Shown here piece after piece: positions 5,846-18,577 of a stretch of 64,000 nucleotides of DNA (positions within the stretch are counted from its first letter, which is position 1; each line of letters begins with the position of its first letter). A program made the translations under genes and the position numbers. The DNA is from a virus. The DNA is taken from IMG/VR virus record IMGVR_UViG_3300014720_000016; one strand, given 5' to 3'. The notes below the pieces were generated by a model, which saw nothing but the letters and a program-made list of their open reading frames with translations, searched no databases and had not been told where the DNA came from.

Positions 5846-5846
5846 G

Positions 5847-6068: not shown

Positions 6069-6186
6069 ATTTTTACCTTCATCCCGCCTCGCAATCCGAA
6101 ACGGGCTCTGTCTGGAAGTATTTTGCGGGCGCATAGCACGCGGAGTGCTGTATCTTACTGCTTTTCTGCCCGCCTTCGCCACTAAG

Positions 6187-6209
6187 GGATCAGGCGGGAC
6201 CGGGTTTAG
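6187..6209 (-). promoter_or_regulatory. recurrent oriented motif (putative phage early promoter)
   Basis: GGATC-AGGCGGGA-CCGGGTTTAG. Confidence 0.65.
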
Positions 6210-6242
6210 GCCCGACCCGTGCTGATATAGGGGCGCAAACCG

Positions 6243-6773
6243 CTATCCTAGCCCCTGAGCCGACTGCGCTGCTTGGCGTGTATATTCGTACAGGATTACG
6301 TTGGCAGCTTGCGCGGCATTGATACAAAAGCCCACTCCGGGCATAGGAATGGCAATTATCTCGCTATTAAGTAGAATATCAGGGGGCACGCCAGTCTTTT
6401 CATTGCCAATAACAATACAGGTAGGCGTTTTCATATCAAAGGCATAGCTATGCAAGCTGGCTGCATCGGGATGCAGCTCTGCTGATAGCACCCGCATATC
6501 ATGCGCGGCACAATGCTCTAATAGATCGTGAGGATTAGAAAACTTCCTGATAGTTAGGAAGTCGCTTGTTGATCCTGATAGTTCTCGGAGTACCGCTGGC
6601 GGCGGGCAATCACCGATTATATTAACGGCTCGCGCGCCAAAGCAAGCCGCCGCCCGAATTAGATAGCCTATGTTTTCTTCACAACGGAAATTGACAGTAG
6701 CTACTTCTAGTGGATAGCATATGGCATTGGAAACTTTGGCAGAATATCTTTGTTTGCGAGTTTCACTTCGCAT
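6243..6773 (-). CDS. SpoU/TrmH-family RNA 2'-O-methyltransferase
   Basis: NIGYLIRAAACFG, VIGNEKTGV, IPMPG..INAAQAANVILYE SPOUT motifs. Confidence 0.9.
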   Translation of the reverse strand: MRSETRKQRYSAKVSNAICYPLEVATVNFRCEENIGYLIRAAACFGARAVNIIGDCPPPAVLRELSGSTSDFLTIRKFSNPHDLLEHCAAHDMRVLSAELHPDAASLHSYAFDMKTPTCIVIGNEKTGVPPDILLNSEIIAIPMPGVGFCINAAQAANVILYEYTRQAAQSAQGLG

Positions 6774-6786
6774 TAGTTAAGCGCCT

Positions 6787-7077
6787 TTACTTATCATTGG
6801 TACGCAATGGCGAGCCATTGAGATAATAGAATTCGTTGATTATATTTCCTGCTTCATCATGAACCGTAACCGCCGGCCCATCTTCCCGGTGCAGTAATCC
6901 ATTCTCTAGATAATCGCGATAGCGCAAGACACCGTTTTTAAACGTGAAAATGATTTGCCTGTATTTTGTGGCTGGTGGGTTTTCGTCAATGTAAATAACC
7001 ACATCGCCGTTAACCTTGCAGCGCCAGCCAGGCGGGCAGTTTACTATATAGTCGGCATGATACATCTTCATCGCCAT
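6787..7077 (-). CDS. MORN-variant/YwqK-like repeat protein
   Basis: YLENGLLHREDGPA..YYLNG. Confidence 0.65.
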   Translation of the reverse strand: MAMKMYHADYIVNCPPGWRCKVNGDVVIYIDENPPATKYRQIIFTFKNGVLRYRDYLENGLLHREDGPAVTVHDEAGNIINEFYYLNGSPLRTNDK

Positions 7078-7307
7078 AGTAGTACCTTGTTTTTAATAGT
7101 ACCATATGGCGGGCCTAGCTTGCTAGTTCACATAAGCGGCCTGATGAACAATAACGATCTCATCCTCAGGAACAGATACCTGAATAGAAATTTCATTTCG
7201 GGCAGACCCTGCGGGTGCATTATCAGCGCATGAAGCAATTAGCACAAATGCAATGGCAATAAAAATCTTGATCAAGATACAAACCCTTTCTGTAGAAAAT
7301 GGAGAAA

Positions 7308-7691
7308 TTACCACCACGAAGTATAGAACACAGCCTGCCCGTTGCTAAGTAGCTCACGAGCGGTTGCAATAAAACGCAAATCTTCCTGATCCTGATCATA
7401 GGTATCACGCATGGCCCCAAAGAAAAAGCCATCTGTTTTCGGCAGACAACTGCGCAGGATAACATCTTCTAGCGCCGCCAAATCTTCTTCAGTAAGCCTT
7501 ACTGCTGCGCAGTTGAATTCTTCTTGTCCGCCTTTTGAAATATAAAGGCGCTCCATCCAGCCCTGAAGGCCAGGGTGCTTGCGCCAGTAGGCGAACTCCT
7601 TGGAGTTATCTACTACCAAGTCTTCGAAACCAATCTGCTTGTCACCAAGCAGTTCAGCGGGACAATGACGAGCGTACTGATCCAATCCCAT
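7308..7691 (-). CDS. conserved phage hypothetical protein
   Basis: MGLD..YWRKHPGLQGWM..GFFFG..YTSWW pattern. Confidence 0.75.
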   Translation of the reverse strand: MGLDQYARHCPAELLGDKQIGFEDLVVDNSKEFAYWRKHPGLQGWMERLYISKGGQEEFNCAAVRLTEEDLAALEDVILRSCLPKTDGFFFGAMRDTYDQDQEDLRFIATARELLSNGQAVFYTSWW

Positions 7692-7703
7692 GCTAGTCTC
7701 CAA

Positions 7704-7877
7704 TCAATCTTTGATGTAGCCCTGCTCAAGAAGCTGGACAGCGGTACGACCGTACCAGCCCTGAAGGTTATACGCAGCTCCAGAGTCGTGGAGGTACTGC
7801 CAGGCAGCGATTACCTCTTCCTCGTTATCAACTTCCCGGTCGCCTTCGATAATTGAAACTGCCGAAAAAAGATCCAT
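7704..7877 (-). CDS. small conserved phage protein
   Basis: AWQYLHDSG..LQGWYGRTA pattern. Confidence 0.7.
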   Translation of the reverse strand: MDLFSAVSIIEGDREVDNEEEVIAAWQYLHDSGAAYNLQGWYGRTAVQLLEQGYIKD

Positions 7878-7896
7878 CTTAGATTCCACTGACACG

Positions 7897-8256
7897 CTAT
7901 TCTCCTGGTCCTTCAAGATATTCGAATTGAATTTCTAGCTGTTCGCACTTGGCGCGCAGATCGCGCACATGCTGGATAATAGTTGCATCATCAGGGCAGA
8001 CAGTGCTCCACTTGATACCTAGTGCATTAAGTACGCCTTCTGCAAGGTCTCCGGCCTGCTTGGCGCAGCCTTCGGCATAACTGCTTGCCGCATCCAGCCG
8101 CTTCTGACAGCGGAGTAGATCGTCTAAGATTTCCTTGTTGCAGGATTTCAGGCGTGCCACTTCGTCGCACAGGGCAAGCACATCGGCTGCCGCTCGTGAC
8201 AGATCAACTGATGAGCCACGGTACATTTGACGAATACATTCTTCGTCTAGCTTCAT
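7897..8256 (-). CDS. hypothetical coiled-coil protein, MKL start
   Basis: AGGAAG RBS; 39 nt downstream of motif 8295. Confidence 0.7.
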   Translation of the reverse strand: MKLDEECIRQMYRGSSVDLSRAAADVLALCDEVARLKSCNKEILDDLLRCQKRLDAASSYAEGCAKQAGDLAEGVLNALGIKWSTVCPDDATIIQHVRDLRAKCEQLEIQFEYLEGPGE

Positions 8257-8294
8257 ATCTTCCTTCTTGGAGTGTCGCCGAGCTGCGCCCGCCC

Positions 8295-8317
8295 GGATCG
8301 GGGGCGACCGGGTTTAG
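8295..8317 (-). promoter_or_regulatory. recurrent oriented motif
   Basis: GGATC-GGGGGCGA-CCGGGTTTAG. Confidence 0.65.
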
Positions 8318-8334
8318 GCCGGAGCCGGCCTAGT

Positions 8335-8361
8335 AAAAAGCCCCGCTGCGGGCGGGGCTTT
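8335..8361 (-). terminator. intrinsic terminator
   Basis: AAAGCCCCGC/GCGGGGCTTT hairpin with U-tract on minus strand right after the 8367 stop. Confidence 0.75.
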
Positions 8362-8366
8362 AGGAC

Positions 8367-9125
8367 TCAGTCTTCGCTTTCGGATTCTACTGCTGCCAGC
8401 CTATCTGACATATAGGCTTTAAGCCACTCTACTAGATCGGCAGTCTTGCCTGGATCGGCCTTGATTCCTTTTGCTATAATAGCCAGCTCATCAGCCTTGC
8501 GATGCAGAGCATCGGCTGGCCCGCGCTGTGGCGGTAGGTTTTCCAGCTTATCTAGCAGCTCGACAAAGTTATTTACTTTGTACTTCGCAGCATCAGCAGG
8601 ATCATAATCAAGGCCTATGATGCGCGACCAAAGAGACATTATCTCGCGCTCATCTTCCTGTCGAGCCTCTAGTTGCGACAGTATCATCTCATCGGCGGAC
8701 GCATCCAGTTTAGCAATCTCGCCTCGCAAAAGCTTAATCAGCTGATCATAGTTCTTGTAGTCTACTCCTGGCTTCCATGGGAAAGTAAGATTAATTGCAG
8801 TCCAAGTCCGGGGGTCTCCTACCTTGCCATTCTCAGGAATATCCTGTCCCTCTGAGCGAGGCGTTCGGTTTATGGCTTCAGCAATCTTTAGATACTTGTT
8901 AAGCAGCTTCTGTACCTGTAACATTTGCTGTGACTCTGCTTTGCGCTTAGCAGCTGATCCAGGTTGTTCATTACTAATCGTAGCTCCCTGAGTCATTTTT
9001 ATGTCATCGCCGCCAGCGTCAGTCATAGCTAGGACGATCTTGTCTAGCCTGTCCGCCAGGCCGGTATGGCCGCGGGTATCCAGCTCATTAGCAATCTTTA
9101 TCAAGCTCTTAGCAACACTCCTCAT
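8367..9125 (-). CDS. hypothetical protein with IANELD leader
   Basis: MRSVAKSLIKIANELDTRGHTGLADRLD; GGAGG RBS at 9130-9134. Confidence 0.8.
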   Translation of the reverse strand: MRSVAKSLIKIANELDTRGHTGLADRLDKIVLAMTDAGGDDIKMTQGATISNEQPGSAAKRKAESQQMLQVQKLLNKYLKIAEAINRTPRSEGQDIPENGKVGDPRTWTAINLTFPWKPGVDYKNYDQLIKLLRGEIAKLDASADEMILSQLEARQEDEREIMSLWSRIIGLDYDPADAAKYKVNNFVELLDKLENLPPQRGPADALHRKADELAIIAKGIKADPGKTADLVEWLKAYMSDRLAAVESESED

Positions 9126-9207
9126 GGCGCCTCCCATAGCTTTAAAGTTATCAAATAGTAATAGGCCGGCCATATTATATTGCCGGCCGGCAATCAATCG
9201 GCGCTAC

Positions 9208-9465
9208 TTAGCGGGGATTGCAAACATAGGGACGCAAATGCCGGGCTGCCTCGCAGGCAGCGATATGCTGGATTAGCTGCCCCTCAAACTGCTCAATTAG
9301 TCGAATATGCTCCTCAGGCAGCCGACCCATGTCAAGCGAGCTTACCACTAGCTGGCCGTGAGAGGGCGAGTACCATGTGGTTGCGGGTCGTACATCGCCT
9401 GGCCCAAAATCAAGAACCCAGCCAAAGTCAGGAACGCTAGGCTGCAAAGTAAGGGTGATGCTCAT
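9208..9465 (-). CDS. hypothetical protein
   Basis: GAGG RBS; fits minus-strand run. Confidence 0.6.
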   Translation of the reverse strand: MSITLTLQPSVPDFGWVLDFGPGDVRPATTWYSPSHGQLVVSSLDMGRLPEEHIRLIEQFEGQLIQHIAACEAARHLRPYVCNPR

Positions 9466-9504
9466 GCTTGTCCTCGTAAGTTTCTGCTCCTATTTACAGA
9501 GGAG

Positions 9505-9879
9505 TCACCGTGGCGGAGCATAGGCCCGGACAACAATCTTTTTACCGGGCAGCGCTGCTAGGATGCTCCGCATAGCAGAGGCTCCCACAGGATTATGAGA
9601 ATGGATAAGTATATTGTCTGGGCAGTGATCAGGATTATTAACCAGCCAGCGGGCGGCATCCTTACCCGTTAATTCCCGCACTGTACCGTCCTCCCGGACA
9701 GTGTCAGGGTCGTGCTCAAAGCCCAGATCATGATCGAGGCAAACCATGTCATAAGCACCTGATCGGGCCAGCCCTACGAATTCGCTATAGGTGTATGCAT
9801 GGGCAAGATCGTTGCCTGCCAGAATCTTCTGAAATCCGGCGTGACGTTCTGCATCATCATCAAGAATCAGTGTCTTCAT
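9505..9879 (-). CDS. cyclic-phosphate-processing receiver (cREC-like) domain protein
   Basis: LILDDD, LDHDLG, TG, IHSHNPVGA motifs of this stand-alone receiver clade. Confidence 0.75.
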   Translation of the reverse strand: MKTLILDDDAERHAGFQKILAGNDLAHAYTYSEFVGLARSGAYDMVCLDHDLGFEHDPDTVREDGTVRELTGKDAARWLVNNPDHCPDNILIHSHNPVGASAMRSILAALPGKKIVVRAYAPPR

Positions 9880-10204
9880 TTTTGTCCGTTTGCAGTAATC
9901 GAATTTCTTTTAGCAAAGCACCAGTCATACTGGGATCAGACGACCCTGGCATGACGCCTCGAGTAAGAAGATCAATTGTAGCATCGTCAACCGGAATAGA
10001 TCCTGGGCTGAATAAGTAATTGCCGCCTAGTGAAGAAACCCAGCTACAAATGTCTAGGCTGTCAGGATCAAGGGCTAGCCTGAGCTTTCCGCTGCCAGGT
10101 ATATTAAAAGATACCACTATGCGACTGCCGTTGCGGTAAGCACTGAATCCAGCACCAGCAGGAATAGGATAGCGAAGTAATATCTCCGCATTTTCTAACT
10201 TCAT
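9860..10204 (-). CDS. hypothetical protein, MKL start
   Basis: GAGG RBS; overlaps downstream gene. Confidence 0.65.
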   Translation of the reverse strand: MKLENAEILLRYPIPAGAGFSAYRNGSRIVVSFNIPGSGKLRLALDPDSLDICSWVSSLGGNYLFSPGSIPVDDATIDLLTRGVMPGSSDPSMTGALLKEIRLLQTDKNEDTDS

Positions 10205-10222
10205 AGCGTAGCTGTTCCTCTG

Positions 10223-10456
10223 TTACTGTTTGTTGCCAAAAGTATAGTCGTTCTCAGGATCGTCAGGCACATCTATCTGCTCTGAATCGCCTAGCACGCT
10301 GATGGCATAAATGCTGACAGGCTCCCGATTTTTTCGGAACCTGTAGTTGTGCTGCGCCAGCACTATCCCGAGAATAGCCATATCTTGAGGATAGGGCAGT
10401 CGCAGGACGCACGTTCCCCATCGGTCACGGAATTCATAGGCCTTGATAAGCTTCAT
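10223..10456 (-). CDS. MKL family B small protein
   Basis: MKLIKAYEFRD..IYAISVLGD..I. Confidence 0.7.
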   Translation of the reverse strand: MKLIKAYEFRDRWGTCVLRLPYPQDMAILGIVLAQHNYRFRKNREPVSIYAISVLGDSEQIDVPDDPENDYTFGNKQ

Positions 10457-10606
10457 GGTATTCCTTACCACGGAACGTTTAGCCCGCTAAACCAGCCGGG
10501 CAAATCCCACCACGCTTCCCAAAAGGGGCCTCCGCCCATTATAATCTCGCGCTCTACCAGGCGATGCCAGTCAGAGAAAGGTGCAGCGGGGGTGCAGAAG
10601 TAATAA

Positions 10607-10783
10607 TTACTTTTCCCGGTCGAAGGCGCCACAAGAGCAGTCATGCCAATCCTTCCACCAGCCGCAATCAGAAGCGTGCTCCGCCTCAGGCTCGGAATCC
10701 CCTAGGCTGCAAGGAGCACCAGCGTCATCGGTACCACAGGCAACGCAATAACCATCTCTAGTCCAGCCGGCATGATTGTTCAT
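10607..10783 (-). CDS. 58-aa Cys/His-rich protein
   Basis: Hand translation MNNHAGWTRDGYCVACG..HASDC..DCSCG..*. Confidence 0.55.
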   Translation of the reverse strand: MNNHAGWTRDGYCVACGTDDAGAPCSLGDSEPEAEHASDCGWWKDWHDCSCGAFDREK

Positions 10784-10790
10784 AGGCGCC

Positions 10791-11054
10791 CTACCATGAA
10801 GTAATTGTTGCAGTATTATTTGGACTTACAGTTGAGCTAATATATGAATTGCAGTCAGGCAGCGCCATCATGTAGCACATACCATTGACAAATATCCTAA
10901 TGGCAGCTGGCGCCAGCCGACCGTGCAGTACGTTGTCGGCTACTACCAGGGACGCTGGCGGTGCTAGACCGAACTCACGCGCAGCTATGGCCGCCGCTGC
11001 ATACCAGTGGCGACAAGCGATTGCTTCTGCCATTTCCCACTTCAACAGCTTCAT
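10791..11054 (-). CDS. MKL family A small protein
   Basis: MKLLKWEMAEAIACRHW..REFGL. Confidence 0.75.
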   Translation of the reverse strand: MKLLKWEMAEAIACRHWYAAAAIAAREFGLAPPASLVVADNVLHGRLAPAAIRIFVNGMCYMMALPDCNSYISSTVSPNNTATITSW

Positions 11055-11151
11055 ATAACTTTATCGCGCTTCTATCTCGGGCACGCCGGATTCTAGGACA
11101 ATCTTTGCCAGGGCAAGCCGGGCCATCTCGGCGGACCAAGGCTCGACGATA

Positions 11152-11772
11152 TCACCGCCTTGTTCGGCGATTAGCTTTAGCACTCGCACGGCTTCGGCTA
11201 GTGCGGCTTCCTGTTCGTTTTCCATCGGCTACCTCATCAAGAATATTTACAATCTGGCTTATCATTGCGCCCTGACTACCCTTGGCAAGAGGATAGCTGC
11301 CGAGCAGGGCGCCGTCACTATAAACGGCAAGCATGTTCGTGTATGTGCCGGCGGGATAATCTAGCCTAGCGGAAAATACTTTGGCAAAAAGAGATCGGTA
11401 AGAAACCAACATTTGGTTACGACCGTTGTCGTCCTCCCACTCACCCAGACACAGCTCGCCATAAGGAAGGGACGGCTTTGCCGCCTCTGTATCTTCAAGC
11501 TGCGCGATTGCCTGCGCAAATAGGGCCAGAGCCCTGTTTACCGGCAGAAGCCGCGGGCACACTTTGTTTAGCCTTGCCCTGTGAAACCGCCTGCGAGCCA
11601 GCCTGCTCATCCTACAGCTACCGCTCCACCATCTAGACGCAAGATGGCCATAGATAGTCACGTCGTTCGTGCGGTGCCAGGATGCTCGAGCTAGCGAGGT
11701 ATCTTTGCCGGCCGAGATTCGCAGGTACCCATTCGAATCCTCGGCGATATAAATGTTGTTTGTTTTTGGCAT
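11152..11772 (-). CDS. hypothetical basic protein
   Basis: AGGA RBS before MPKTNN; Arg-rich tail. Confidence 0.65.
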   Translation of the reverse strand: MPKTNNIYIAEDSNGYLRISAGKDTSLARASWHRTNDVTIYGHLASRWWSGSCRMSRLARRRFHRARLNKVCPRLLPVNRALALFAQAIAQLEDTEAAKPSLPYGELCLGEWEDDNGRNQMLVSYRSLFAKVFSARLDYPAGTYTNMLAVYSDGALLGSYPLAKGSQGAMISQIVNILDEVADGKRTGSRTSRSRASAKANRRTRR

Positions 11773-11804
11773 CTGCCCTATCCTTTGTGGCAAGCTGCTG
11801 CCGA

Positions 11805-12176
11805 TTACCTAGAAAAAGAAGCGCCGCAACCACAGGTGCGCCGGACCTCGTCCGACCTGAACTTGAAGCCGCTTTCAAGCAGGGTTCGCAGGTAGTCTAG
11901 GGTTGTCCCCTTTAGATAGGGCTCGCTAAAGCAGTCGATTACAAAATGCAGCCCGCCTACAAGATAAACCGAATCTTCTTCCGGGTCAACGGCATCTTGC
12001 TTGATGAACTCAAGATTGTACATAAAGCCAGAACAGCCTCCGCCTTTTACGCCAATCCTAATCCCGAACACATCGGGATCGGGGTCGTCTGAGTAGGCTG
12101 CCCGGAATTGTAGCAGGGCTTCTCCAGTGATTGTCACTGGGCAAAGCTCGGCACTCTTGATGTCTTGTGCTGTCAT
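11805..12176 (-). CDS. iscA: IscA/HesB-family Fe-S cluster assembly accessory protein
   Basis: IRIGVKGGGCSGFMY, YLKGTTLDY, CGCGASFS; GAGGT RBS. Confidence 0.92.
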   Translation of the reverse strand: MTAQDIKSAELCPVTITGEALLQFRAAYSDDPDPDVFGIRIGVKGGGCSGFMYNLEFIKQDAVDPEEDSVYLVGGLHFVIDCFSEPYLKGTTLDYLRTLLESGFKFRSDEVRRTCGCGASFSR

Positions 12177-12189
12177 GTGATCACCTCAT

Positions 12190-12269
12190 TGGCGCGCCCG
12201 GCTCGATTTGAACGAGCATGGGTCCAGTTATCCTTTCAACGACTTAGAAGGTCGAGGGAATACGGGCGC
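12190..12269 (-). ncRNA. D-armless tRNA-like RNA, anticodon loop CUUCUAA (UCU/Arg), CCA encoded
   Basis: Acceptor GCGCCCG/CGGGCGC+GCCA; T-arm GCTCG-TTCAAAT-CGAGC; CGAC/GTCG stem; only 8 nt where the D-arm should be. Confidence 0.75.
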
Positions 12270-12287
12270 ACAAATAATTACCAGGGG

Positions 12288-12593
12288 CTAGGTAAAAAGC
12301 CTTTGGACTACATAAGGATCCGTCACGCCCTCATCATCCCCTGAAGCCTCTAGCATACGGTATGCCAGCTCTATTGAGCTTTTTGTAATCTTGGCAAGAT
12401 TTGGAGAGAAGTAGGTGCCGGTGACGACTTGTCCACCTATACTTATCTGCTCACCGAACTGGTATATACAAAAGCCAGGCTTAACAACCCAAGCATACAT
12501 CGTGCTATCATCATAGATTCCGGTGAAAGCATCCGTGTATTCGCCAACTACTTCCTGTAGATGTTCGCGAATTTCCCACTCTCTAATCTTCAT
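12288..12593 (-). CDS. MKL family C protein
   Basis: MKIREWEIREHL..GF..YFSPNLAKI; paralogue of 14512-14844. Confidence 0.7.
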   Translation of the reverse strand: MKIREWEIREHLQEVVGEYTDAFTGIYDDSTMYAWVVKPGFCIYQFGEQISIGGQVVTGTYFSPNLAKITKSSIELAYRMLEASGDDEGVTDPYVVQRLFT

Positions 12594-12856
12594 TGCTTCA
12601 TCGCAAACACTACCCGTAGTGCCGGGTGAATGGTGTCTATAAAAGTATTGGAATAAAAACCTTCGCCGTCGCTCCAACTGTAGTACTCTTTGGATCGGTA
12701 CATAACGATCTCATTGCCAGCATAAGGATCGTCTACTACGACTTCAGCAGATGCTGTGTCAAAGTCAATCCCGAACTGCGCCTTAAACAACCTGTATATC
12801 TCGTCCACGTCGCGGCGCTGGAATGCATCTAGCATCTGGTAGTGATCCAGCTTCAT
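12590..12856 (-). CDS. MKL family A small protein
   Basis: MKLDHYQMLDAFQRRD..AQFGI..YSW..GF. Confidence 0.8.
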   Translation of the reverse strand: MKLDHYQMLDAFQRRDVDEIYRLFKAQFGIDFDTASAEVVVDDPYAGNEIVMYRSKEYYSWSDGEGFYSNTFIDTIHPALRVVFAMKQ

Positions 12857-12857
12857 G

Positions 12858-13115
12858 CTATACCCTTAGAGTAATGGCGCAAGATGTGCGACGATTAAAC
12901 TTGGCAAAAGATTTGCCGAAGCCGCTTTCGGCGGTCCATTTATAGTATCCTGGCCCATCCCAAAGGTGGACCGCATCTCCATGAAGATGAGTAGGATGAA
13001 CTTCTACTGACAAGTCTACAATGCTCAGGCCGAAGTGCTCTTGAAAGATCTGCACGGCTTTGTCGGTGTCGGCCTGCTGGAAAGCCTCTAGCATTAGATA
13101 GTGATTTAGCTTCAC
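12858..13115 (-). CDS. MKL family A small protein
   Basis: MKLNHYLMLEAFQQAD..EHFGL..YKW..GF (GTG start). Confidence 0.8.
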   Translation of the reverse strand: MKLNHYLMLEAFQQADTDKAVQIFQEHFGLSIVDLSVEVHPTHLHGDAVHLWDGPGYYKWTAESGFGKSFAKFNRRTSCAITLRV

Positions 13116-13132
13116 GCCTCACCCGCCCCTCT

Positions 13133-13155
13133 GGATAGGCGCGGCCCGGCTTTAG
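13133..13155 (-). promoter_or_regulatory. recurrent oriented motif (variant)
   Basis: GGATA-GGCGCGGC-CCGGCTTTAG; its TAA is the stop codon of the upstream gene. Confidence 0.55.
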
Positions 13156-13436
13156 ACCGGAGCCCGCGCTCTAATTGCCATGGCCCACCACACAGTGATG
13201 CTAGGTTTTGTGTAAGGCGTTATTATTTCAAAGCAAGAAAAGCCATTACGCGAATCCCACACATATGACTTATACCCTGCGTCAACCCTAAGCTGGTCAA
13301 TATAAGGATATGAATCCCTTACTTCTGCCTCGACATTAGGGAGCTTTATGTTAAAGTGTTGCTCGACGCCAGCCTTAATAGCAGGCAGATCCCGCTCAGC
13401 AAAGGCAAGGCGCATCGCATAGTTGTCTAGCTTCAT
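13152..13436 (-). CDS. MKL family A small protein
   Basis: MKLDNYAMRLAFAERD..QHFNI..YVW..GF. Confidence 0.8.
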   Translation of the reverse strand: MKLDNYAMRLAFAERDLPAIKAGVEQHFNIKLPNVEAEVRDSYPYIDQLRVDAGYKSYVWDSRNGFSCFEIITPYTKPSITVWWAMAIRARAPV

Positions 13437-13449
13437 GACTGCGCAACAC

Positions 13450-13968
13450 TCAATCCCAGAACCGATCAAGGGTTTCAATGATGCCAATGAAGTCTGAGAT
13501 AGGAGAGCCGGAGCGAAAGCAGCCGACCTGGTCGGGATGATTACCCCATCGGCAATGGCCGCGGTCAATGTCGTCCTTCATCTGTACCAGTTGCTTGACA
13601 GCCGCTTCCGTAATATAGTTGTGATTAATGTATTGCTGATAGCTATATGTGCCATCGTCTTCGTGCGCAATATTGTCGCAACCGACAACACTTACCTGCT
13701 TGCAAAGACCGAGGTCATAGGGGCTGCTCTTGCGCCACTTGATAGTGGAGAACGTGCCGCCCGCCGGTTCGAGATCGTAGGCAGTGCTCTCTGGATCGGC
13801 ATAGTGAGCTTCGTAAGCAGGGATATCAGGAACCGCTACTGCCTTGTAGTACTTGCCAAGTGTGCCGAAGAAAGGGATATCATCCTGCGAGCAGGAGAAG
13901 TTTACATAAATCTTAAAGCAGTCGCCAGCAGCAACCGGCGGGCTGTAGTCAATCTTGTTAATTTTCAT
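13450..13968 (-). CDS. hypothetical protein
   Basis: 172-aa ORF, MKI start, within run. Confidence 0.65.
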   Translation of the reverse strand: MKINKIDYSPPVAAGDCFKIYVNFSCSQDDIPFFGTLGKYYKAVAVPDIPAYEAHYADPESTAYDLEPAGGTFSTIKWRKSSPYDLGLCKQVSVVGCDNIAHEDDGTYSYQQYINHNYITEAAVKQLVQMKDDIDRGHCRWGNHPDQVGCFRSGSPISDFIGIIETLDRFWD

Positions 13969-14245
13969 GCTGATAATCCCGCTTTCTTATAACGGTTAGT
14001 TGCGGCACTACGTCGCCTAGCCCGGCTGAATAACGATAGGAATAGAAGCCAGTGTCCTGGCTCCATGTATAGCGCTTGTCGCAAATACGCAGAGAAACAT
14101 AGCTGTCATCCACTACGCTGTCTAGGAGTGCGACCTCTGCTTTTGCCTGAAGGGAGCAGCCGTGATGCCTAGCGATGGCAGCAGCCAGACCATCCCAGTC
14201 GCCGCGCTCGATCATAAATATAAGCTCGTAATCTATGAGCTTCAA
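13958..14245 (-). CDS. MKL family A small protein (TTG start)
   Basis: LKLIDYELIFMIERGDW..RHHG..YTW..GF; AGGA RBS. Confidence 0.75.
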   Translation of the reverse strand: MKLIDYELIFMIERGDWDGLAAAIARHHGCSLQAKAEVALLDSVVDDSYVSLRICDKRYTWSQDTGFYSYRYSAGLGDVVPQLTVIRKRDYQHEN

Positions 14246-14246
14246 A

Positions 14247-14525
14247 TCAAATTCCTTTGCAGTAGACAATAGCCATCGGAGTAGGGTAGTTTACTGGGTA
14301 CCGCTCGGAGATCACCTGCCCTCGCCTCCAGTAGTAGATATTGTATTGCCAGCGGATCTGCACCTCTTCCATATCCCAGGCAGGCATTACTGACGTAGAT
14401 ATGCCATGAATGCTAATGGCTTCCTCAATACCCTCGAGTGGGAATAAGGATGCTAGCAGCCGAACAGCTGCTCCCCAGTCCTTTTCCCCAAGGGCAAACT
14501 TAATCGCAATGCTAGCTAGCTTCAT
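14247..14525 (-). CDS. MKL family A small protein
   Basis: MKLASIAIKFALGEKDWGAA..YYW. Confidence 0.75.
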   Translation of the reverse strand: MKLASIAIKFALGEKDWGAAVRLLASLFPLEGIEEAISIHGISTSVMPAWDMEEVQIRWQYNIYYWRRGQVISERYPVNYPTPMAIVYCKGI

Positions 14526-14844
14526 TGGCCGCCCTGAACATATCTGCGATTTCTTCGCAGGCCGATGCCTGCTTCCATGGCAAGCCGGAGCTGCGAACAA
14601 TAACATTTACAGCCGCAGTTATACTATCGTCGCTAATCTTAGTTAGACATGGCTCGAAGTATCCAGACACGCTGCCGTGCACAGAGACTGCTACAGCATT
14701 GCCACGCTGCAAAAAGGCAAATCCATCATTGTGGGGCCAGAGTAGCAGGGCATGATCCCTGGTGCGCCCTGCCCAGAAAACCTCGGGCTCTCTGCCAAGC
14801 AGCTCACTTATATGCCGCTCAATCTCCCATTGTCGCAGCTTCAT
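14512..14844 (-). CDS. MKL family C protein
   Basis: MKLRQWEIERHI..GF..YFEPCLTKI. Confidence 0.7.
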   Translation of the reverse strand: MKLRQWEIERHISELLGREPEVFWAGRTRDHALLLWPHNDGFAFLQRGNAVAVSVHGSVSGYFEPCLTKISDDSITAAVNVIVRSSGLPWKQASACEEIADMFRAANEAS

Positions 14845-14850
14845 AATGCC

Positions 14851-15114
14851 TCAACGATTGCAATCAAATACAGTCACAAGTAGCTTGTAACGCGGCACTA
14901 TGCTGCCGGAATAAAGACCAATTATTTTATCCCAGCCATACACCATGCATTCGGTTTCAATTACTACTTCGGGATGATGATCGCGATCCAGCATAACCTC
15001 AAGGTCGTACCCATCAGGAAGGACAAGTCCATAATGATCCGCAAGGGCAGTCACGGCTAGCTCGTAGTCTGCCGCCATGAACGCTTCTGAGATAGCAACA
15101 GACGCCAGCTTCAT
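14851..15114 (-). CDS. MKL family A small protein
   Basis: MKLASVAISEAFMAADY..DHYGL..YGW. Confidence 0.8.
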   Translation of the reverse strand: MKLASVAISEAFMAADYELAVTALADHYGLVLPDGYDLEVMLDRDHHPEVVIETECMVYGWDKIIGLYSGSIVPRYKLLVTVFDCNR

Positions 15115-15117
15115 ATC

Positions 15118-15616
15118 TCACCTGCCGGCCACAAAGAATGCCGGATCAAACTTGCCGTGGTGATTACCCTCAAAGCGATCAAGGAAATGCTCAGTAATCT
15201 TGCTGGGGGCACCGATGAGTTCGACCATGTCCCTGTTTTTAAGGGTGCAGACCTCGCCCGCATCATCCACATAATGCACGCGAGAAACACCAGCGTTCTT
15301 AAGGCAATGCTGGCAAAGCAAGCATGGCTTGCCGTTCTTATTCTGCCGGGACTCTGCACCCCCGGCATTGTTGAAGCGATAGATAAAAATCTTGCTGCCG
15401 CTTGCCTTGGGTCCGAGCTTGCGGAGCAGGTCCATCTCAGCGTGCATCGAGCAACGGAATACTGATCTGTTCCGGGAGTAACGCAGCTTATTGACACCAA
15501 AGTCAACTGCTACGCCACCCTTTATTGCAAAGGCAACAATCTGATGCTGAAGCTCGTCGTCCCTAAACTGGGTAGCGATAGATTCAGCGAGGTACTACAA
15601 AATCAAGATAACGCAT
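15118..15616 (-). pseudogene. cytidine/dCMP deaminase-fold protein with apparent frameshift near the start
   Basis: HAE and KPCLLC zinc motifs; frame stays open upstream to 15594, but the SD-led ATG at 15616 is 1 nt out of frame. Confidence 0.7.
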
Positions 15617-15619
15617 TTA

Positions 15620-15961
15620 TCAGGCTCCTGTGGTTAGGGTTTGCTGCCGGAAAACTTCTAGAACTGGACGATCACGCAGTTGAGCGCGAGGGTTAGTCTT
15701 TCCATCAGAGTAGTACCTCTGAGCGGATAGTGATGCTATAAAGCCCGTATCGCTGTGCCACTCAAACCTATAACCGTAGATCGGATATAGTAGCAGGGAG
15801 TCCGCTGCCCGCGCAAAGGGAATCTGGAGACTCGTCAGGCTGTAAACCTGAAGTTCATTCAGGCTTACCTCTACATTAAAGTGGCGAGCTATTATGCCCG
15901 CCGCAGTCATCCATTCCCCATCTTCAATAGCTACTAGCATCGCAGCGGTTTCTAGTTTCAT
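15620..15961 (-). CDS. MKL family A small protein
   Basis: MKLETAAMLVAIEDGEW..RHFNV..FEW..GF. Confidence 0.8.
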   Translation of the reverse strand: MKLETAAMLVAIEDGEWMTAAGIIARHFNVEVSLNELQVYSLTSLQIPFARAADSLLLYPIYGYRFEWHSDTGFIASLSAQRYYSDGKTNPRAQLRDRPVLEVFRQQTLTTGA

Positions 15962-15981
15962 AGCGATGCTAGTAGCTTACA

Positions 15982-16404
15982 TCAAAGCGCCGTCACCGCC
16001 AGCTTTGTTGTAACGTGCCCGCGCTCCTTGATCGGAGGCAGGTTTGCCATCAGTACGCGGATGCTTTCCTCGCACTCGGCAATCTCTGGGTAATTTTCCA
16101 GGAGAGTTTCCCGAGCGCTCTTGTCCATTGAAATGGCATCGTGCATACAGCTAAGCAGAACGGCGGTAGCCCGCTCCCGCTGGATGCCCATGCGCTGAAT
16201 GAAAAGTGCCATGACCGCAAGATGGGGCAGGCGAGCAGTAGGAGCCTTCTCGGTATCCTCACCCACCTTAACCTTGCCCTGAACCCGGACAGTAAAGTCT
16301 ACTGCGTGTTCACCGGGCTGCACCTCGTCACGGGCACCGCCAGACTTAATAGATCCAAGAGCAACAATCTCAATCGGGGAAAGTTCGCTAATGCTTTGAG
16401 CCAT
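15982..16404 (-). CDS. hypothetical protein
   Basis: GGAG RBS; 41 nt downstream of motif 16445. Confidence 0.75.
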   Translation of the reverse strand: MAQSISELSPIEIVALGSIKSGGARDEVQPGEHAVDFTVRVQGKVKVGEDTEKAPTARLPHLAVMALFIQRMGIQRERATAVLLSCMHDAISMDKSARETLLENYPEIAECEESIRVLMANLPPIKERGHVTTKLAVTAL

Positions 16405-16444
16405 ATTTACTCCGTGTGTGGTTTGTGCGCTGTGCCGCCGGTCG

Positions 16445-16467
16445 GGATCGGGCCGCGCCGGCTTTAG
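16445..16467 (-). promoter_or_regulatory. recurrent oriented motif
   Basis: GGATC-GGGCCGCG-CCGGCTTTAG. Confidence 0.7.
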
Positions 16468-16482
16468 GCCCGGCCCGTACTG

Positions 16483-17598
16483 TCAGGTCATCTGGCGGAT
16501 GTCGCGGTCATCTACCTGCTCCCATGCCACATTGCGTGGGTTCAGGTGGCGATTGAAATAGTCGAGAGCCGACTCGTAGGTGATCCGGTCGATATTCTTG
16601 AGGAAGGACACCTTCTCGTTCGAAGAGTTAAGGTGCTTGCGGAATCCCGAAGATGCCAGGTTCTGCTCGGCAATGCGGATTGCAATGCGGCGATTTGCCA
16701 TCATCATGTCAAACCGCTCGCGGGTAAAATGCTTCTCCGGGTTAGAGAGCACATCCAGCGTAAGGCCCTTGATGCGATCCACGTTGCTGTCTTTGGTGGA
16801 TGTCGATACAACCATGATGTGGTCGTCGTTCATCTTGTAGGCGCTAGCCGAAACCCAGTAACAAAGACTGGCCTTCTCCCGTAGCTCCTGATACAGCGGA
16901 CTCTTTAGACCATAACCAAGAGTAGCCTGGATAATCTGAAGATGATAAACCCCATCAAGCGGCAGGATGGGTGAGGCGCTCAGGACATTAATGCTGCTAG
17001 GTACAACAGGCGCATCGTGGTTGACGTGACGGAAGCCAGTATAGGTAGCGGCGCTCGTATCAGCAAACTCGGCCTGCACATCGAAGTCATCACGGTCAAT
17101 GACAATAATCTTTGAAGGCTTTGCGAATGCGCGAGCGTGCAGCTCACAAATCTGCTCAAATGTTACAGACTCAATAGCAGCCCGGACGCCGATAGGACCC
17201 ACATAGCCGAAGCGGACGCTGGAATAGTTGGCGAAGCTAGAGAAGCCGCTCTCGCTATAGGCGTCATCATACTCCTGGAGTACGATATTCTTTTCCTTGT
17301 TAAAGTGTTCGAGGGTCGGTCGATAGCTGAGGATGCGCTCTACAAACAGATCGCGGAACTTGGCCAGCTCACTGCTAAGCCCTGACAGGAAGAACACTAC
17401 CTCGTCACCGCCGGTATAGGCATTGTAGGTTAGGCAATGCTCATCTAGCTTTTCTTCAACGTCATCCAGTGAGCAGCAAATCATGTGCTCGAGCAGGTGC
17501 GACATGCCTTTGAGATGCGGATCTTCGTTCTTGACCGGCGACTCGAAAGCAATATAGATCGCGCCCAGCTCGTTGTTGGACTTCTCGAAAATCTTCAT
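16483..17598 (-). CDS. M16 (insulinase/pitrilysin) family zinc peptidase
   Basis: GMSHLLEH inverted HxxEH, NAYT, EKNIVLQE, SPLYQELREK..Y. Confidence 0.9.
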   Translation of the reverse strand: MKIFEKSNNELGAIYIAFESPVKNEDPHLKGMSHLLEHMICCSLDDVEEKLDEHCLTYNAYTGGDEVVFFLSGLSSELAKFRDLFVERILSYRPTLEHFNKEKNIVLQEYDDAYSESGFSSFANYSSVRFGYVGPIGVRAAIESVTFEQICELHARAFAKPSKIIVIDRDDFDVQAEFADTSAATYTGFRHVNHDAPVVPSSINVLSASPILPLDGVYHLQIIQATLGYGLKSPLYQELREKASLCYWVSASAYKMNDDHIMVVSTSTKDSNVDRIKGLTLDVLSNPEKHFTRERFDMMMANRRIAIRIAEQNLASSGFRKHLNSSNEKVSFLKNIDRITYESALDYFNRHLNPRNVAWEQVDDRDIRQMT

Positions 17599-17611
17599 TT
17601 AGTTCCTTTTA

Positions 17612-17950
17612 TCAGGGGTTATAGGACAGGCGGGCGAAGCATCCACAGTGCCACACTCTTGCTTTATCTCGTACTGGTGCCAGCAGCGCGGCAACATTTA
17701 TGTGCGCGCCGCATGTTATTGAAAACTGGTTAGGCTCACCTTCGTTGCCATATGCCGCAAGTCGCTCGGCGCTACGACCTGATACGTATTCGGCCAGGAT
17801 TATGTAATTGCGTTGCCACACGATCTCTTCTATATCGCTGGAGGCTAGCTGGCCGGCAATGGCGTACCAGGCAGGCGGGAATGGTAGATCAATGGCAGTG
17901 TGCCATTCTGCCGGTGCGAGGACGGTAAAGATCTGGTCAGCTAGCTTCAT
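17612..17950 (-). CDS. hypothetical protein, MKL start
   Basis: ORF in run. Confidence 0.65.
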   Translation of the reverse strand: MKLADQIFTVLAPAEWHTAIDLPFPPAWYAIAGQLASSDIEEIVWQRNYIILAEYVSGRSAERLAAYGNEGEPNQFSITCGAHINVAALLAPVRDKARVWHCGCFARLSYNP

Positions 17951-17953
17951 CTA

Positions 17954-18247
17954 TTACCCATCTTCGCGAAAATAGCCCGCCCTCGCCAGAGCAGATATAA
18001 CATCCTCGACTTCGTCATCAGGAAACTTTAAAAATATTCCTGGAGACATTATGTATAGCTCGTGAGTGTATTGCAGGCCTAGACTATACTGGCCGTAGAC
18101 TTTATCCTTGGTATGCAGCTTCTTTGCGTAAAATAAGCTAGCAGTAGTCTCCAACCCGTCACCAGTAACAATATAGGCGTGCTCGGTCCACGGTGAAACC
18201 CATGAGAGGCTCTTTAGCTTGTAGAAAACTATGCTGTCTAGCTTCAT
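17954..18247 (-). CDS. hypothetical protein, MKL start
   Basis: ORF in run. Confidence 0.65.
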   Translation of the reverse strand: MKLDSIVFYKLKSLSWVSPWTEHAYIVTGDGLETTASLFYAKKLHTKDKVYGQYSLGLQYTHELYIMSPGIFLKFPDDEVEDVISALARAGYFREDG

Positions 18248-18288
18248 GCAACTACTCGCTATCTGCTCTGGCGAACAAGCTCCTAACT

Positions 18289-18324
18289 AAAAAAGCAGCC
18301 CCGCTGCTGGTACAGCGGGGCTGC
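18289..18324 (-). terminator. intrinsic terminator
   Basis: 12-bp stem GCAGCCCCGCTG/CAGCGGGGCTGC followed by U6 on minus strand. Confidence 0.85.
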
Positions 18325-18330
18325 CGGGCG

Positions 18331-18573: not shown

Positions 18574-18577
18574 CTTA

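What the first reader, a model, noticed from the sequence alone, without database searches (positions are those of the whole stretch)
12190..12269. D-armless tRNA-like RNA with encoded CCA and a long variable region
Seen: perfect 7-bp acceptor stem, canonical T-arm and a 4-bp stem with loop CUUCUAA (UCU in anticodon position). The D-arm is replaced by 8 nt (UAUUCCCU). A 22-nt variable region (UUGAAAGGAUAACUGGACCCAU) contains a D-loop-like AACUGG and an AGGAUA that could pair with the 5' linker. Inference: a rearranged tRNA mimic in which the D-loop function is supplied from the 3' side. It could be a decoy for anticodon nucleases or tRNA-sensing defences, or a substrate or cofactor of the RNA ligase. 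tRNA scanners may miss it or call it a pseudogene.
Basis: partly seen in the sequence, partly recalled or inferred. Interest (0 to 1): 0.7.

Follow-up and report, generated by a model that had tools for sequence, protein, structure and literature searches.

The report
Phage arginine tRNA with rewired D-arm
This 80-base gene of an uncultured giant phage is most likely a working arginine tRNA (anticodon UCU) whose D-arm is not missing: it is assembled from two strands lying on either side of the anticodon arm, a non-cloverleaf layout shared by many unrelated phages, invisible to standard tRNA finders, and not described in any paper I could find.

Summary
On the minus strand at 12190-12269 lies an 80-nt tRNA-shaped RNA gene with a perfect 7-bp acceptor stem, a canonical T-arm, a CUUCUAA anticodon loop, G73-CCA and no D hairpin. 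ARAGORN and Rfam do not call it.

I first read it as a broken tRNA-Arg gene, because it is absent from the one related phage I could reach. Notes from earlier follow-ups of this scan, on other DNA, pointed to a class of "rewired" phage tRNA-Arg, and I tested that claim here.
- A covariance model built from this sequence alone finds a full-length match in Felix O1 and 74 matches (64 distinct sequences in all) in IMG/VR contigs.
- A structure-blind alignment shows covariation in all four helices. That includes a 3-bp D-stem between nt 11-13 and the 3 nt just 5' of a conserved UAAYUGGA (93.8% paired, 20 haplotypes).
- A family model built without this sequence scores it at 83.9 bits, against about 30 bits for canonical tRNA-Arg(UCU).

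Most members sit among canonical tRNA genes. None is called by ARAGORN. The Felix-type copy occurs in 263 GenBank phage records and is almost never annotated.

Most likely function: an AGA/AGG-decoding tRNA. The decoy and ligase-cofactor ideas have no support. The scan had found this class before.

The parts
12263..12269 (-). Acceptor stem, 5' strand (nt 1-7, GCGCCCG)
   Evidence: Pairs perfectly with 12194-12200. Pairing probability 0.9-0.99. All 7 pairs covary across the family and 99.6% of cells are paired.
12261..12262 (-). U8 A9 (nt 8-9)
   Evidence: Invariant in 64/64 family members. These positions were not specified in the search pattern.
12257..12260 (-). D-stem strand that takes the place of canonical 22-25 (nt 10-13, UUCC)
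   Evidence: U11-A39, C12-G38 and C13-G37 pair. Family covariation at the three pairs: CG49/UA7/GC6/AU2, GC24/UA18/CG15/AU7, and CG31/GC17/UA3/UG1/other12. There are 20 haplotypes.
12239..12256 (-). Position-26 equivalent (nt 14) plus the anticodon arm (nt 15-31). Stem is U.U + CGAC/GUCG, loop is CUUCUAA, and anticodon UCU lies at 12246-12248.
   Evidence: An 18-mer is identical to the anticodon arm of annotated phage tRNA-Arg(UCU) genes, and the 15-nt stem-loop CGACCUUCUAAGUCG to that of E. coli argU. All 5 stem pairs covary in the family.
12234..12238 (-). Linker from the anticodon stem to the D-stem (nt 32-36, UGAAA)
   Evidence: Variable in length across the family (3-10 nt, mostly 5 or 8) and unpaired.
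12230..12233 (-). D-stem strand that takes the place of canonical 10-13 (nt 37-40, GGAU)
   Evidence: Partner of nt 10-13. The signal lies on the diagonal only: slid registers pair in 37-45% of cells, against 97% for the real register.
12223..12229 (-). Open 'D-loop' strand (nt 41-47, AACUGGA), read as A14 A15 C16 U17 G18 G19 A20
   Evidence: The family motif is UAAYUGGA. This motif was part of the search pattern, so its invariance is partly due to how members were selected. The one isoleucine-anticodon member has U at the A20 place.
12218..12222 (-). Connector to the T-arm (nt 48-52, CCCAU), ending in a near-invariant A-U
   Evidence: A is present in 62/64 and U in 63/64 members, and neither was in the search pattern. 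I infer these are the A21 and U48 equivalents.
12201..12217 (-). T-arm (nt 53-69, GCUCG UUCAAAU CGAGC)
   Evidence: Pairing probability 0.98-0.99. Four of the 5 pairs covary in the family.
12190..12200 (-). Acceptor stem 3' strand (CGGGCGC), discriminator G73 and encoded CCA
   Evidence: CCA is encoded in 40/64 members, and the discriminator is G in 37 and A in 20.
12288..12593 (-). Upstream neighbour: a 101-aa gene of unknown function. It is context only, not part of the RNA.
   Evidence: Homologues of 101 aa set the start codon. There is no Pfam or PHROG hit.
11805..12176 (-). Downstream neighbour: an IscA/HesB-type Fe-S cluster assembly protein whose start lies 14 nt after the CCA. It is context only.
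   Evidence: Pfam PF01521, E 1.3e-12.
13133..13156 (-). Nearest upstream copy (2 mismatches) of the phage's CCTAAA-N13-GATCC motif, the probable promoter of the unit that contains the tRNA
   Evidence: 38 matches against 15.5 expected by chance. No separate promoter or terminator lies next to the element.

Best explanation
The element is a tRNA-Arg(UCU) gene of a phage-borne family with a transposed D-arm half.

Chain order. In a cloverleaf the order is 8-9, D-stem 5' strand (10-13), D-loop (14-21), D-stem 3' strand (22-25), 26, anticodon arm, variable loop, T-arm. Here the order is U8 A9, then the 22-25 strand (UUCC), 26, the anticodon arm, a short linker, the 10-13 strand (GGAU), and then the D-loop nucleotides (AACUGGA) as an open strand running into the T-arm.

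Consequence. The D-stem still forms and stacks on the anticodon stem, but it encloses the anticodon arm.

Inferred fold. The nucleotides that build the tRNA core and elbow are all present, so the RNA can fold into the usual L shape. They are U8-A14, A15 with the U before the T-stem, and G18G19 for the T-loop. A20 is available for arginyl-tRNA synthetase.

Inferred life cycle. The RNA is transcribed inside a polycistronic unit from the phage promoter near 13133-13156. RNase P cuts its 5' end (U at -1, an intact acceptor/T minihelix and GCCA). The 3' end is trimmed to the encoded CCA. The host ArgRS charges it (A20-equivalent A47, C35, U36, G73). It then reads AGA, and AGG by wobble. Together these codons make up about 25% of arginine codons in the window's open reading frames.

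Shown versus inferred. Family membership, the four helices and the conserved positions are shown here. Folding, processing, charging and decoding are inferred.
For: 1. Homology to tRNA-Arg(UCU). The acceptor stem and G73-CCA match E. coli argU except for a double, compensating change at pair 7:66. The anticodon arm is identical. Model R1 aligns full-length to a canonical phage tRNA-Arg with a 12-nt gap at the D-arm and a 16-nt insert after the anticodon arm.
2. The family is real and wide. R1, built from this sequence alone, hits Felix O1 at 25951-26032 with 36.7 bits. It also gives 74 full-length matches in 80 IMG/VR loci, 64 distinct sequences in all. The nearest members are only about 71% identical, and no flanking similarity is shared with the window.
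3. Covariation on a MAFFT alignment that was not fitted to the structure. 97.1% of cells pair, against 63% in shuffles and 37-45% in slid registers. The rewired D-stem pairs in 93.8% of cells, with changes on both sides at all three pairs. It shows 20 haplotypes. R1 and the search pattern did not include these pairs.
4. Leave-one-out test. Model R3 gives 83.9 bits for this element, against 30.6 and 29.8 for canonical tRNA-Arg(UCU) genes.
5. tRNA context. 48 of 63 members have at least one canonical tRNA within 2 kb, and some have up to 16. In the Felix O1 tRNA cluster ARAGORN finds Arg(ACG) but no Arg(UCU), so the rewired gene fills that slot.
6. Positions outside the search pattern are conserved: U8 and A9 in 64/64, and the A-U before the T-stem in 62/64 and 63/64.
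7. Other anticodons occur on the same scaffold: ACG, CCU and GAU. The Ile (GAU) member alone lacks the A20-equivalent.
8. Demand for the tRNA. AGA is 8.9% and AGG 16.5% of Arg codons in the window's ORFs. The related phage G001 carries a different atypical UCU-anticodon tRNA in the same neighbourhood.
Against: No expression, processing or aminoacylation data exist for any member.

This copy is not in a tRNA cluster. It lies between two protein genes without its own promoter or terminator.

It is absent from the only related genome I could read, G001. There it is missing at both flanks and genome-wide with R1 and R2. Conservation at this locus is therefore unshown.

The thermodynamic fold of the central domain is ambiguous: the 4-bp anticodon stem has probability 0.27, the 8-12/37-41 register that overlaps the D-stem strands has about 0.45, and the overall z-score is -1.9.

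The anticodon stem has only 4 Watson-Crick pairs plus a U.U.

The family was collected with a pattern that fixed CUUCUAA, UAANUGGA and GUUCRA, so the invariance of those motifs is partly due to selection.
Confidence: 0.75

Rival explanations
1. A tRNA mimic that is not used in translation. It would act as a decoy or sponge for a host tRNA-directed defence nuclease, for ArgRS or for a modification enzyme, or as a partner of the phage's RNA-repair enzymes.
For: The window encodes an RNA ligase (PF09414), a SpoU methylase and a cyclic-phosphate receiver-domain protein at 4817-9879. The rewired core could change how nucleases or enzymes that read the D-arm recognise the RNA. In the collections I searched the layout turned up only in phage DNA. 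Bacterial genomes were searched only for an exact 21-mer of this copy, which found nothing, and not with the family model.
Against: A decoy would not need several anticodons on one scaffold, the ArgRS identity nucleotides, or a place inside tRNA clusters. No RNA-repair gene is shared in the flanks of other members. The ligase lies more than 6 kb away.
Confidence: 0.12
2. A dead copy. The family may be functional elsewhere, but this gene is a recently acquired, non-functional remnant sitting at a rearrangement junction.
For: It sits exactly at a synteny breakpoint with G001: the upstream gene maps to G001 at 31.9 kb and the downstream gene to 50.7 kb. It is absent from G001. Its T-loop is canonical, whereas the phage's conserved tRNAs have odd T-loops, which suggests recent import. 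There is no private promoter or terminator.
Against: Every family-defining pair and conserved nucleotide is intact. It scores 83.9 bits against a model that excludes it, as high as any score R1 gave another member. A decaying copy should show mismatches in its 20 pairs, and the only non-standard one is the U.U at 27:43, a position that is often unpaired in the family.
Confidence: 0.08
3. Primarily an mRNA punctuation signal. The acceptor/T minihelix would serve as an RNase P cleavage site that separates the upstream message from the Fe-S gene message. The excised RNA would have no role of its own.
For: It is embedded in a polycistronic unit and ends 14 nt before the next start codon. The acceptor/T minihelix with GCCA is the robust part of the fold. 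That such minihelices are RNase P substrates is established knowledge, not something tested here.
Against: Punctuation would not require the conserved anticodon loop, the covarying D-stem or the D-loop nucleotides. Most family members lie among tRNAs, not between protein genes.
Confidence: 0.05

Closest known systems
Canonical bacterial and phage tRNA-Arg(UCU), e.g. E. coli argU (NC_000913.3 564723-564799) and the Escherichia phage ECBP2 tRNA-Arg (NC_018859.1 67613-67685)
   Same: Acceptor stem and G73-CCA (6 of 7 pairs identical to argU, the seventh changed on both sides). Identical anticodon stem-loop CGAC-CUUCUAA-GUCG. U8 and A9. D-loop-type sequence with GG followed by A. 5-bp T-stem with a UUCRAAU loop. 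Nearly the same total length (80 vs 76-77 nt).
   Different: The 10-21 segment (D-stem 5' strand plus D-loop) lies after the anticodon arm instead of before it. There is therefore no D hairpin, and the 'variable region' is 22 nt long. Rfam RF00005 and ARAGORN do not recognise it.
Rewired-D-arm phage tRNA-Arg noted earlier in this scan (reference copy Felix O1 NC_005282.1 25951-26032; also phi92-like and jumbo coliphages)
   Same: The same order of parts, the same covarying 3-bp D-stem next to UAAYUGGA, the same CUUCUAA loop and the same A-U before the T-stem.
   Different: This copy belongs to a subgroup with a 5-nt UGAAA linker (80 nt in total). The Felix type is 82 nt with an 8-nt linker, and identity to it is about 53%. 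This copy comes from an uncultured ~370-kb phage and stands alone between protein genes rather than in a tRNA cluster.
D-arm-lacking mitochondrial tRNAs (e.g. metazoan mt tRNA-Ser(AGY/AGN))
   Same: No D hairpin. A short connector follows the acceptor stem.
   Different: Those tRNAs truly lack the D-stem and D-loop nucleotides and have short variable regions. Here both are present in a different order. ARAGORN's mitochondrial modes do not call it. The context is a phage of bacteria.
Circularly permuted tRNA genes of Cyanidioschyzon merolae and relatives (PMC3978253)
   Same: A tRNA gene whose parts are not in cloverleaf order along the DNA.
   Different: In those genes the 3' half precedes the 5' half, and processing through a circular intermediate restores a normal tRNA. 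Here the termini are the normal acceptor ends, and the mature RNA itself would keep the altered order.
Allo-tRNAs and other tRNAs with 8/4 or 9/3 acceptor/T branches (Mukai et al. 2017, PMC5389517)
   Same: Non-standard tRNA architectures found in bacteria and phages by metagenome mining and missed by default tools. Some carry Arg AGA/AGG anticodons.
   Different: Those keep cloverleaf connectivity and change helix lengths. This one keeps the 7/5 branch and changes connectivity (one search shows that paper describes nothing like it).

Membership tests
Rewired-D-arm phage tRNA-Arg family (defined here by alignment A11 and model R3) | Significant full-length score against a family covariance model that excludes the candidate | tested here: met
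   R3 gives 83.9 bits, E 2.7e-20, model positions 1-80. Canonical tRNA-Arg(UCU) genes score 30.6 and 29.8 bits.
Rewired-D-arm phage tRNA-Arg family (defined here by alignment A11 and model R3) | U8 A9 followed directly by a strand whose nt 11-13 pair with the 3 nt immediately 5' of UAAYUGGA, so that the helix encloses the anticodon arm | tested here: met
   U11-A39, C12-G38 and C13-G37, followed by UAACUGGA.
Rewired-D-arm phage tRNA-Arg family (defined here by alignment A11 and model R3) | 7-bp acceptor stem, 5-bp T-stem with a UUCRA-type loop, 7-nt anticodon loop C-U-NNN-A-A, and A-U just before the T-stem | tested here: met
Rewired-D-arm phage tRNA-Arg family (defined here by alignment A11 and model R3) | Location among canonical tRNA genes of a phage | tested here: not met
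   It is isolated between two protein genes, and the nearest ARAGORN-called tRNAs lie more than 33 kb away. This feature is typical of the family (48/63) but not universal.
Rewired-D-arm phage tRNA-Arg family (defined here by alignment A11 and model R3) | Mature RNA is aminoacylated with arginine and decodes AGA | not testable with these tools
   No experimental data are available for any member.
Canonical tRNA (Rfam RF00005 / ARAGORN cloverleaf) | D hairpin at positions 10-25 between the acceptor and anticodon arms | tested here: not met
   Only 8 nt separate the acceptor stem from the anticodon stem.
Canonical tRNA (Rfam RF00005 / ARAGORN cloverleaf) | Score at or above the Rfam gathering threshold, or an ARAGORN call | tested here: not met
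   No RF00005 match even at E<=10. No ARAGORN call at default or 90% thresholds.
D-armless (mitochondrial-type) tRNA | D-stem and D-loop nucleotides absent, variable region short, detected by armless-tRNA models | tested here: not met
   A D-stem and D-loop nucleotides are present in another order. The region after the anticodon arm is 22 nt. ARAGORN -mt and -mtx find nothing.
tRNA pseudogene or fragment | Disrupted essential helices and no conservation of the disrupted form | tested here: not met
   The same 'disrupted' form is conserved with compensatory changes in 64 distinct sequences.
tmRNA tRNA-like domain, or YrlA/Y RNA | A match to the respective models, plus a tag ORF with pseudoknots (tmRNA) or a Ro-binding stem (YrlA) | tested here: not met
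   ARAGORN finds no tmRNA. Rfam gives no hit of any family at E<=10 in 12000-12500.

The most novel reading that the evidence does not exclude
The transposed D-arm is not a neutral oddity but an adaptation. By changing the chain path through the tRNA core while keeping the L shape, phages would obtain an arginine tRNA that host tRNA-directed defences (or the phage's own host-tRNA-degrading enzymes) cannot recognise or cleave, yet ArgRS, EF-Tu and the ribosome still accept. That would make it the first non-cloverleaf elongator tRNA working on bacterial ribosomes. It would also show that tRNA function depends on the three-dimensional core and not on cloverleaf connectivity.
Probability: 0.25. 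Interest if true: 0.9.

Novelty: new variant of a known kind. Interest (0 to 1): 0.75.

Why it matters
All elongator tRNAs known to work on bacterial ribosomes follow one chain order, and gene finders are built on that rule. This family would show that a conserved tRNA can keep every functional part while threading the chain differently through the core.

Practical consequences:
- Phage tRNA inventories are under-counted. The Felix-type copy is unannotated in almost all of the 263 GenBank records that hold it.
- Codon-usage arguments that phages 'lack' an AGA tRNA may be wrong.
- tRNA search models need a second topology.

Consequences for RNA biology:
- The family offers a natural test of which tRNA features ArgRS, RNase P, EF-Tu and the ribosome really read.
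- It offers a new scaffold for orthogonal tRNA design.

This instance extends the family to an uncultured ~370-kb phage and to a location outside tRNA clusters.

Tried and rejected
1. Decayed tRNA-Arg pseudogene. This was my leading reading through, because the element is absent from relative G001, sits at a synteny breakpoint and has a weak central fold. I rejected it once conserved, covarying homologues were found.
2. G001's Fe-S leader as a deletion remnant of the element. A gap-tolerant alignment is no better than shuffles (159/500).
3. A segment-swap origin test. 367 of 13,234 adjacent-segment swaps give an ARAGORN tRNA-Arg(tct) call, against a mean of 60 in 250 linker shuffles (3/250 reach the observed number). 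At 110% thresholds the figures are 22 vs 0.9 (1/250). This fits a transposed D-arm half. It describes origin, not decay.
4. An intron-containing tRNA. ARAGORN -i at 80% thresholds gives a spurious Thr call with a poor acceptor stem.
5. Mitochondrial-type armless tRNA, tmRNA and YrlA. No model matches.
6. Other copies in the window. There are none.
7. Exact-pattern searches for close relatives found nothing in viral contigs, metagenome contigs or genome contigs.
8. Protein-anchored searches for the same locus in relatives. Only G001 was found. The metagenome and viral scans made with alignments were swamped by generic IscA hits. The genome-contig scan found only a distant bacterial IscA.
The DNA around the closest protein relatives (P0121-P0127 at 82-90% identity, P0001 at 93%) could not be read.
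10. Searching the protein database with the spurious ORF that overlaps the element, to reach that DNA indirectly, gave no hit.
11. Literature searches found no description of this layout.

Full report
**What is there.** On the minus strand, window 12269->12190 reads GCGCCCG UA UUCC C U-CGAC-CUUCUAA-GUCG-U UGAAA GGAU AACUGGA CCCAU GCUCG-UUCAAAU-CGAGC CGGGCGC G CCA. It lies in a 111-nt gap between two genes. Upstream is a 101-aa gene of unknown function (12288-12593), whose start is set by 101-aa homologues. Downstream is an IscA/HesB-type Fe-S gene (11805-12176, PF01521) that starts 14 nt after the CCA. ARAGORN calls only tRNA-Ala and tRNA-Thr in the window. It does not call the element in bacterial, mitochondrial or 90%-threshold modes. 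Rfam gives no tRNA match even at E<=10. In the thermodynamic ensemble the acceptor and T helices are near certain (0.98-0.99), while the centre is ambiguous. The MFE is -26.6 kcal/mol with z = -1.9.

**Genomic setting.** The window is part of an uncultured giant phage.
- One relative is reachable: IMG/VR contig 3300035212_003113 (G001, 371,675 bp, with terminal repeats). Its Fe-S protein is 88% identical and its 101-aa protein 74% identical.
- In G001 those two genes lie 18.5 kb apart, and neither flank holds the element. BLAST and two covariance models find no copy anywhere in G001.
- tblastx shows the element sits exactly where colinearity with G001 breaks.
- The nearest upstream copy of the phage's CCTAAA-N13-GATCC motif is at 13133-13156 and the next is at 8295-8318. 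No private promoter or terminator lies beside the element. It is therefore probably transcribed within a polycistronic unit, as the window's other tRNAs appear to be.

**First reading, later overturned.** The element is clearly derived from tRNA-Arg(UCU).
- An 18-mer is identical to the anticodon arm of annotated tRNA-Arg genes of phiEco32-like coliphages.
- The acceptor stem plus G73-CCA equals E. coli argU except for a double change at pair 7:66.
- Relative to canonical genes it lacks about 12 nt at the D-arm and has 16 extra nt after the anticodon arm.
- Because it is absent from G001, which does conserve the window's tRNA-Thr and an atypical tRNA-Ile-like gene with compensatory changes, I first favoured a freshly scrambled pseudogene.
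- A swap test pointed the same way. 367 of 13,234 exchanges of adjacent segments turn it into something ARAGORN calls tRNA-Arg(tct), against a mean of 60 for 250 composition-matched controls (3/250 reach the observed number). At 110% thresholds the figures are 22 vs 0.9. D-arm information is therefore present but displaced.

**The turn.** A word search of this scan's earlier notes returned several follow-up reports on other genomes. They claim a phage-borne class of arginine tRNAs whose D-stem forms from strands on either side of the anticodon arm, with Felix O1 named as a carrier. I treated this as a lead and tested it.
- My model R1, built from the window sequence alone with only the acceptor, 4-bp anticodon and T pairs, hits Felix O1 at 25951-26032 (36.7 bits, full length). 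The hit lies inside the phage's tRNA cluster and is not called by ARAGORN.
- The two sequences share the order of parts and the motif UAAnUGGA. Their putative D-stem strands differ in a compensating way: UCC/GGA here, CUC/GAG in Felix O1.

**Family and covariation.**
- R1 found 74 full-length matches in the 80 loci returned, 64 distinct sequences including ours.
- A MAFFT alignment that does not know the structure (A10) was scored with the count of structure pairs. 97.1% of cells pair, against 63.1% in shuffles (0/500 reach the observed value) and 37-45% with partners slid by 1-3 columns. 19 of 20 pairs show changes on both sides.
- The helix that matters, columns 11-13 with 42-44, is 93.8% paired. 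Pair 11:44 is CG 49, UA 7, GC 6, AU 2. Pair 12:43 is GC 24, UA 18, CG 15, AU 7. Pair 13:42 is CG 31, GC 17, UA 3, UG 1, other 12.
- There are 20 distinct haplotypes of the D-stem strand pair (4-nt strands, columns 10-13 with 42-45). These pairs were in neither R1 nor the pattern, so their covariation is independent of how the set was collected.
- My own position-by-offset matrix shows the signal only on the diagonal.
- A leave-one-out model (R3, 63 sequences without the window's) scores our element 83.9 bits (E 2.7e-20). Canonical tRNA-Arg(UCU) of phage ECBP2 and E. coli argU score 30.6 and 29.8 bits.

**Structural reading (inference).** Map GGAU-AACUGGA onto canonical positions 10-13 and 14-20, and UUCC-C onto 22-25 and 26. 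This gives the chain order 1-7, 8-9, [22-25], 26, [27-43], linker, [10-13], [14-20], a short connector ending in A-U, [49-65], [66-72], 73, CCA.
- The D-stem (G10:C25, G11:C24, A12:U23, U13.U22 in canonical numbers) can occupy its usual place stacked on the anticodon stem.
- The D-loop nucleotides leave it towards the elbow as usual, but continue into the T-arm instead of returning.
- From established tRNA structure, the three points where the chain is re-joined (9 to 22, 43/44 to 10, 20/21 to 48) are neighbours in the canonical core. There, 9 contacts 12:23, 45 contacts 10:25, and 21 and 48 contact 8:14 and 15. An L shape is therefore plausible.
- Nucleotides that were not part of my search pattern support this. 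U8 and A9 are invariant (64/64). The A-U before the T-stem is present in 62/64 and 63/64.
- The invariance of UAAYUGGA, CUUCUAA and the T-loop is partly imposed by the pattern.

**Why a working tRNA is the best explanation.**
- 48 of 63 members have at least one canonical tRNA within 2 kb, and some have up to 16.
- In Felix O1 the cluster contains Arg(ACG) but no canonical Arg(UCU).
- The same scaffold carries ACG, CCU and GAU anticodons. The single Ile (GAU) member has U where all arginine members have the A20-equivalent, the main ArgRS identity nucleotide in E. coli (established knowledge).
- C35, U36 and G/A73 are kept.
- In the window's ORFs AGA and AGG make up 8.9% and 16.5% of arginine codons.
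- G001, which lacks the rewired gene, has a different atypical UCU-anticodon tRNA 0.8 kb from the orthologous 101-aa gene (31033-31107). It keeps cloverleaf order, its best Rfam hit is tRNA-Sec at 22 bits, and ARAGORN does not call it. Both phages thus seem to need this decoder and supply it differently.

**What argues for caution.**
- There are no expression or charging data.
- This copy is solitary, sits at a rearrangement junction, and is not shown to be conserved in close relatives.
- Its canonical T-loop contrasts with the odd T-loops of the phage's conserved tRNAs, which suggests recent import.

**Annotation and literature.**
- The Felix O1 RefSeq record has no RNA feature at 25951-26032, and an HNH endonuclease CDS is drawn over its 3' end.
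- BLAST of the Felix copy finds 263 GenBank phage records of 85-383 kb genomes (Escherichia, Salmonella, Klebsiella, Serratia, Streptomyces). Of the 40 rows listed, one is annotated 'tRNA-OTHER' and the rest carry no RNA feature.
- None of the 64 members is called by ARAGORN.
- Full-text searches found no description of this layout. The paper on novel cloverleaf tRNAs describes changed helix lengths, not changed connectivity.
- The scan itself had found the class before on other DNA. This report adds an independent derivation starting from a single sequence, a leave-one-out membership test, and a new host lineage and genomic context.

**Verdict.** The element is a member, with high confidence, of a phage family of tRNA-Arg with a transposed D-arm half. 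It is most likely (about 0.75) a functional AGA/AGG decoder.

Noticed in passing
window 43178-43254 (-): A tRNA-Ile(UAU)-like gene with T-loop GGCAGUA and an encoded CCA, not called by ARAGORN or Rfam. It has a homologue in G001 (36674-36737, 82% identity). The anticodon loop and the odd T-loop are conserved, and the acceptor stem shows compensatory changes, so it is probably a functional atypical tRNA.
   Followed up: partly
L304:1501-1575 (= G001 31033-31107): The related phage carries a 75-nt UCU-anticodon tRNA in cloverleaf order but with no 8-9 spacer and a long acceptor-type helix. Its best Rfam match is tRNA-Sec at 22.3 bits, below threshold, and ARAGORN does not call it. It may be an allo-tRNA-like (8/4 or 9/3) arginine tRNA.
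   Followed up: partly
window 45525-45600 (-) and 49629-49698 (-): The window's ARAGORN-called tRNA-Ala and tRNA-Thr have non-standard T-loops, AUCGUGC and UGCGAGU. tRNA-Thr is conserved in G001 with compensatory changes in the acceptor and anticodon stems.
   Followed up: partly
L198:4753-4832 (-), L229:1313-1389 (+), L205:8934-9013 (+): The same rewired scaffold carries other anticodons in other phage contigs: ACG (Arg), CCU (Arg) and GAU (Ile). The Ile copy has UAAUUGGU, with U in place of the A20-equivalent.
   Followed up: partly
L299 (Felix O1 NC_005282.1 25300-26700): The annotated HNH endonuclease CDS Felix01p088 (26003-26395) overlaps the last 30 nt of the unannotated rewired tRNA-Arg (25951-26032). 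The CDS start is probably drawn too far upstream.
   Followed up: no
window 4817-9879 (-): RNA-repair-type genes lie close together: an RNA ligase with a PHA02142 OB domain (4817-5944), a SpoU methylase (6243-6773) and a cyclic-phosphate-processing receiver domain protein (9505-9879). R2K ATP-grasp (29647-30330) and metallophosphoesterase (56012-56677) genes lie elsewhere in the window.
   Followed up: partly
window 12288-21009 vs G001 30.6-47 kb: The region upstream of the element is a mosaic relative to G001. Blocks from G001 30.7, 31.9, 34.5 and 40.7 kb are interleaved, whereas 16483-21009 and 7305-12197 are colinear with G001 42.7-47 kb and 50.6-59.9 kb. The tRNA gene sets of the two phages also differ.
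   Followed up: partly
window, minus strand, 6187-63836: CCTAAA-N13-GATCC occurs 38 times with up to 2 mismatches, against 15.5 expected by chance. Nearly all copies are on the gene strand, with a dense array at 61.8-63.9 kb. Earlier notes of this scan read it as the phage's promoter.
   Followed up: no
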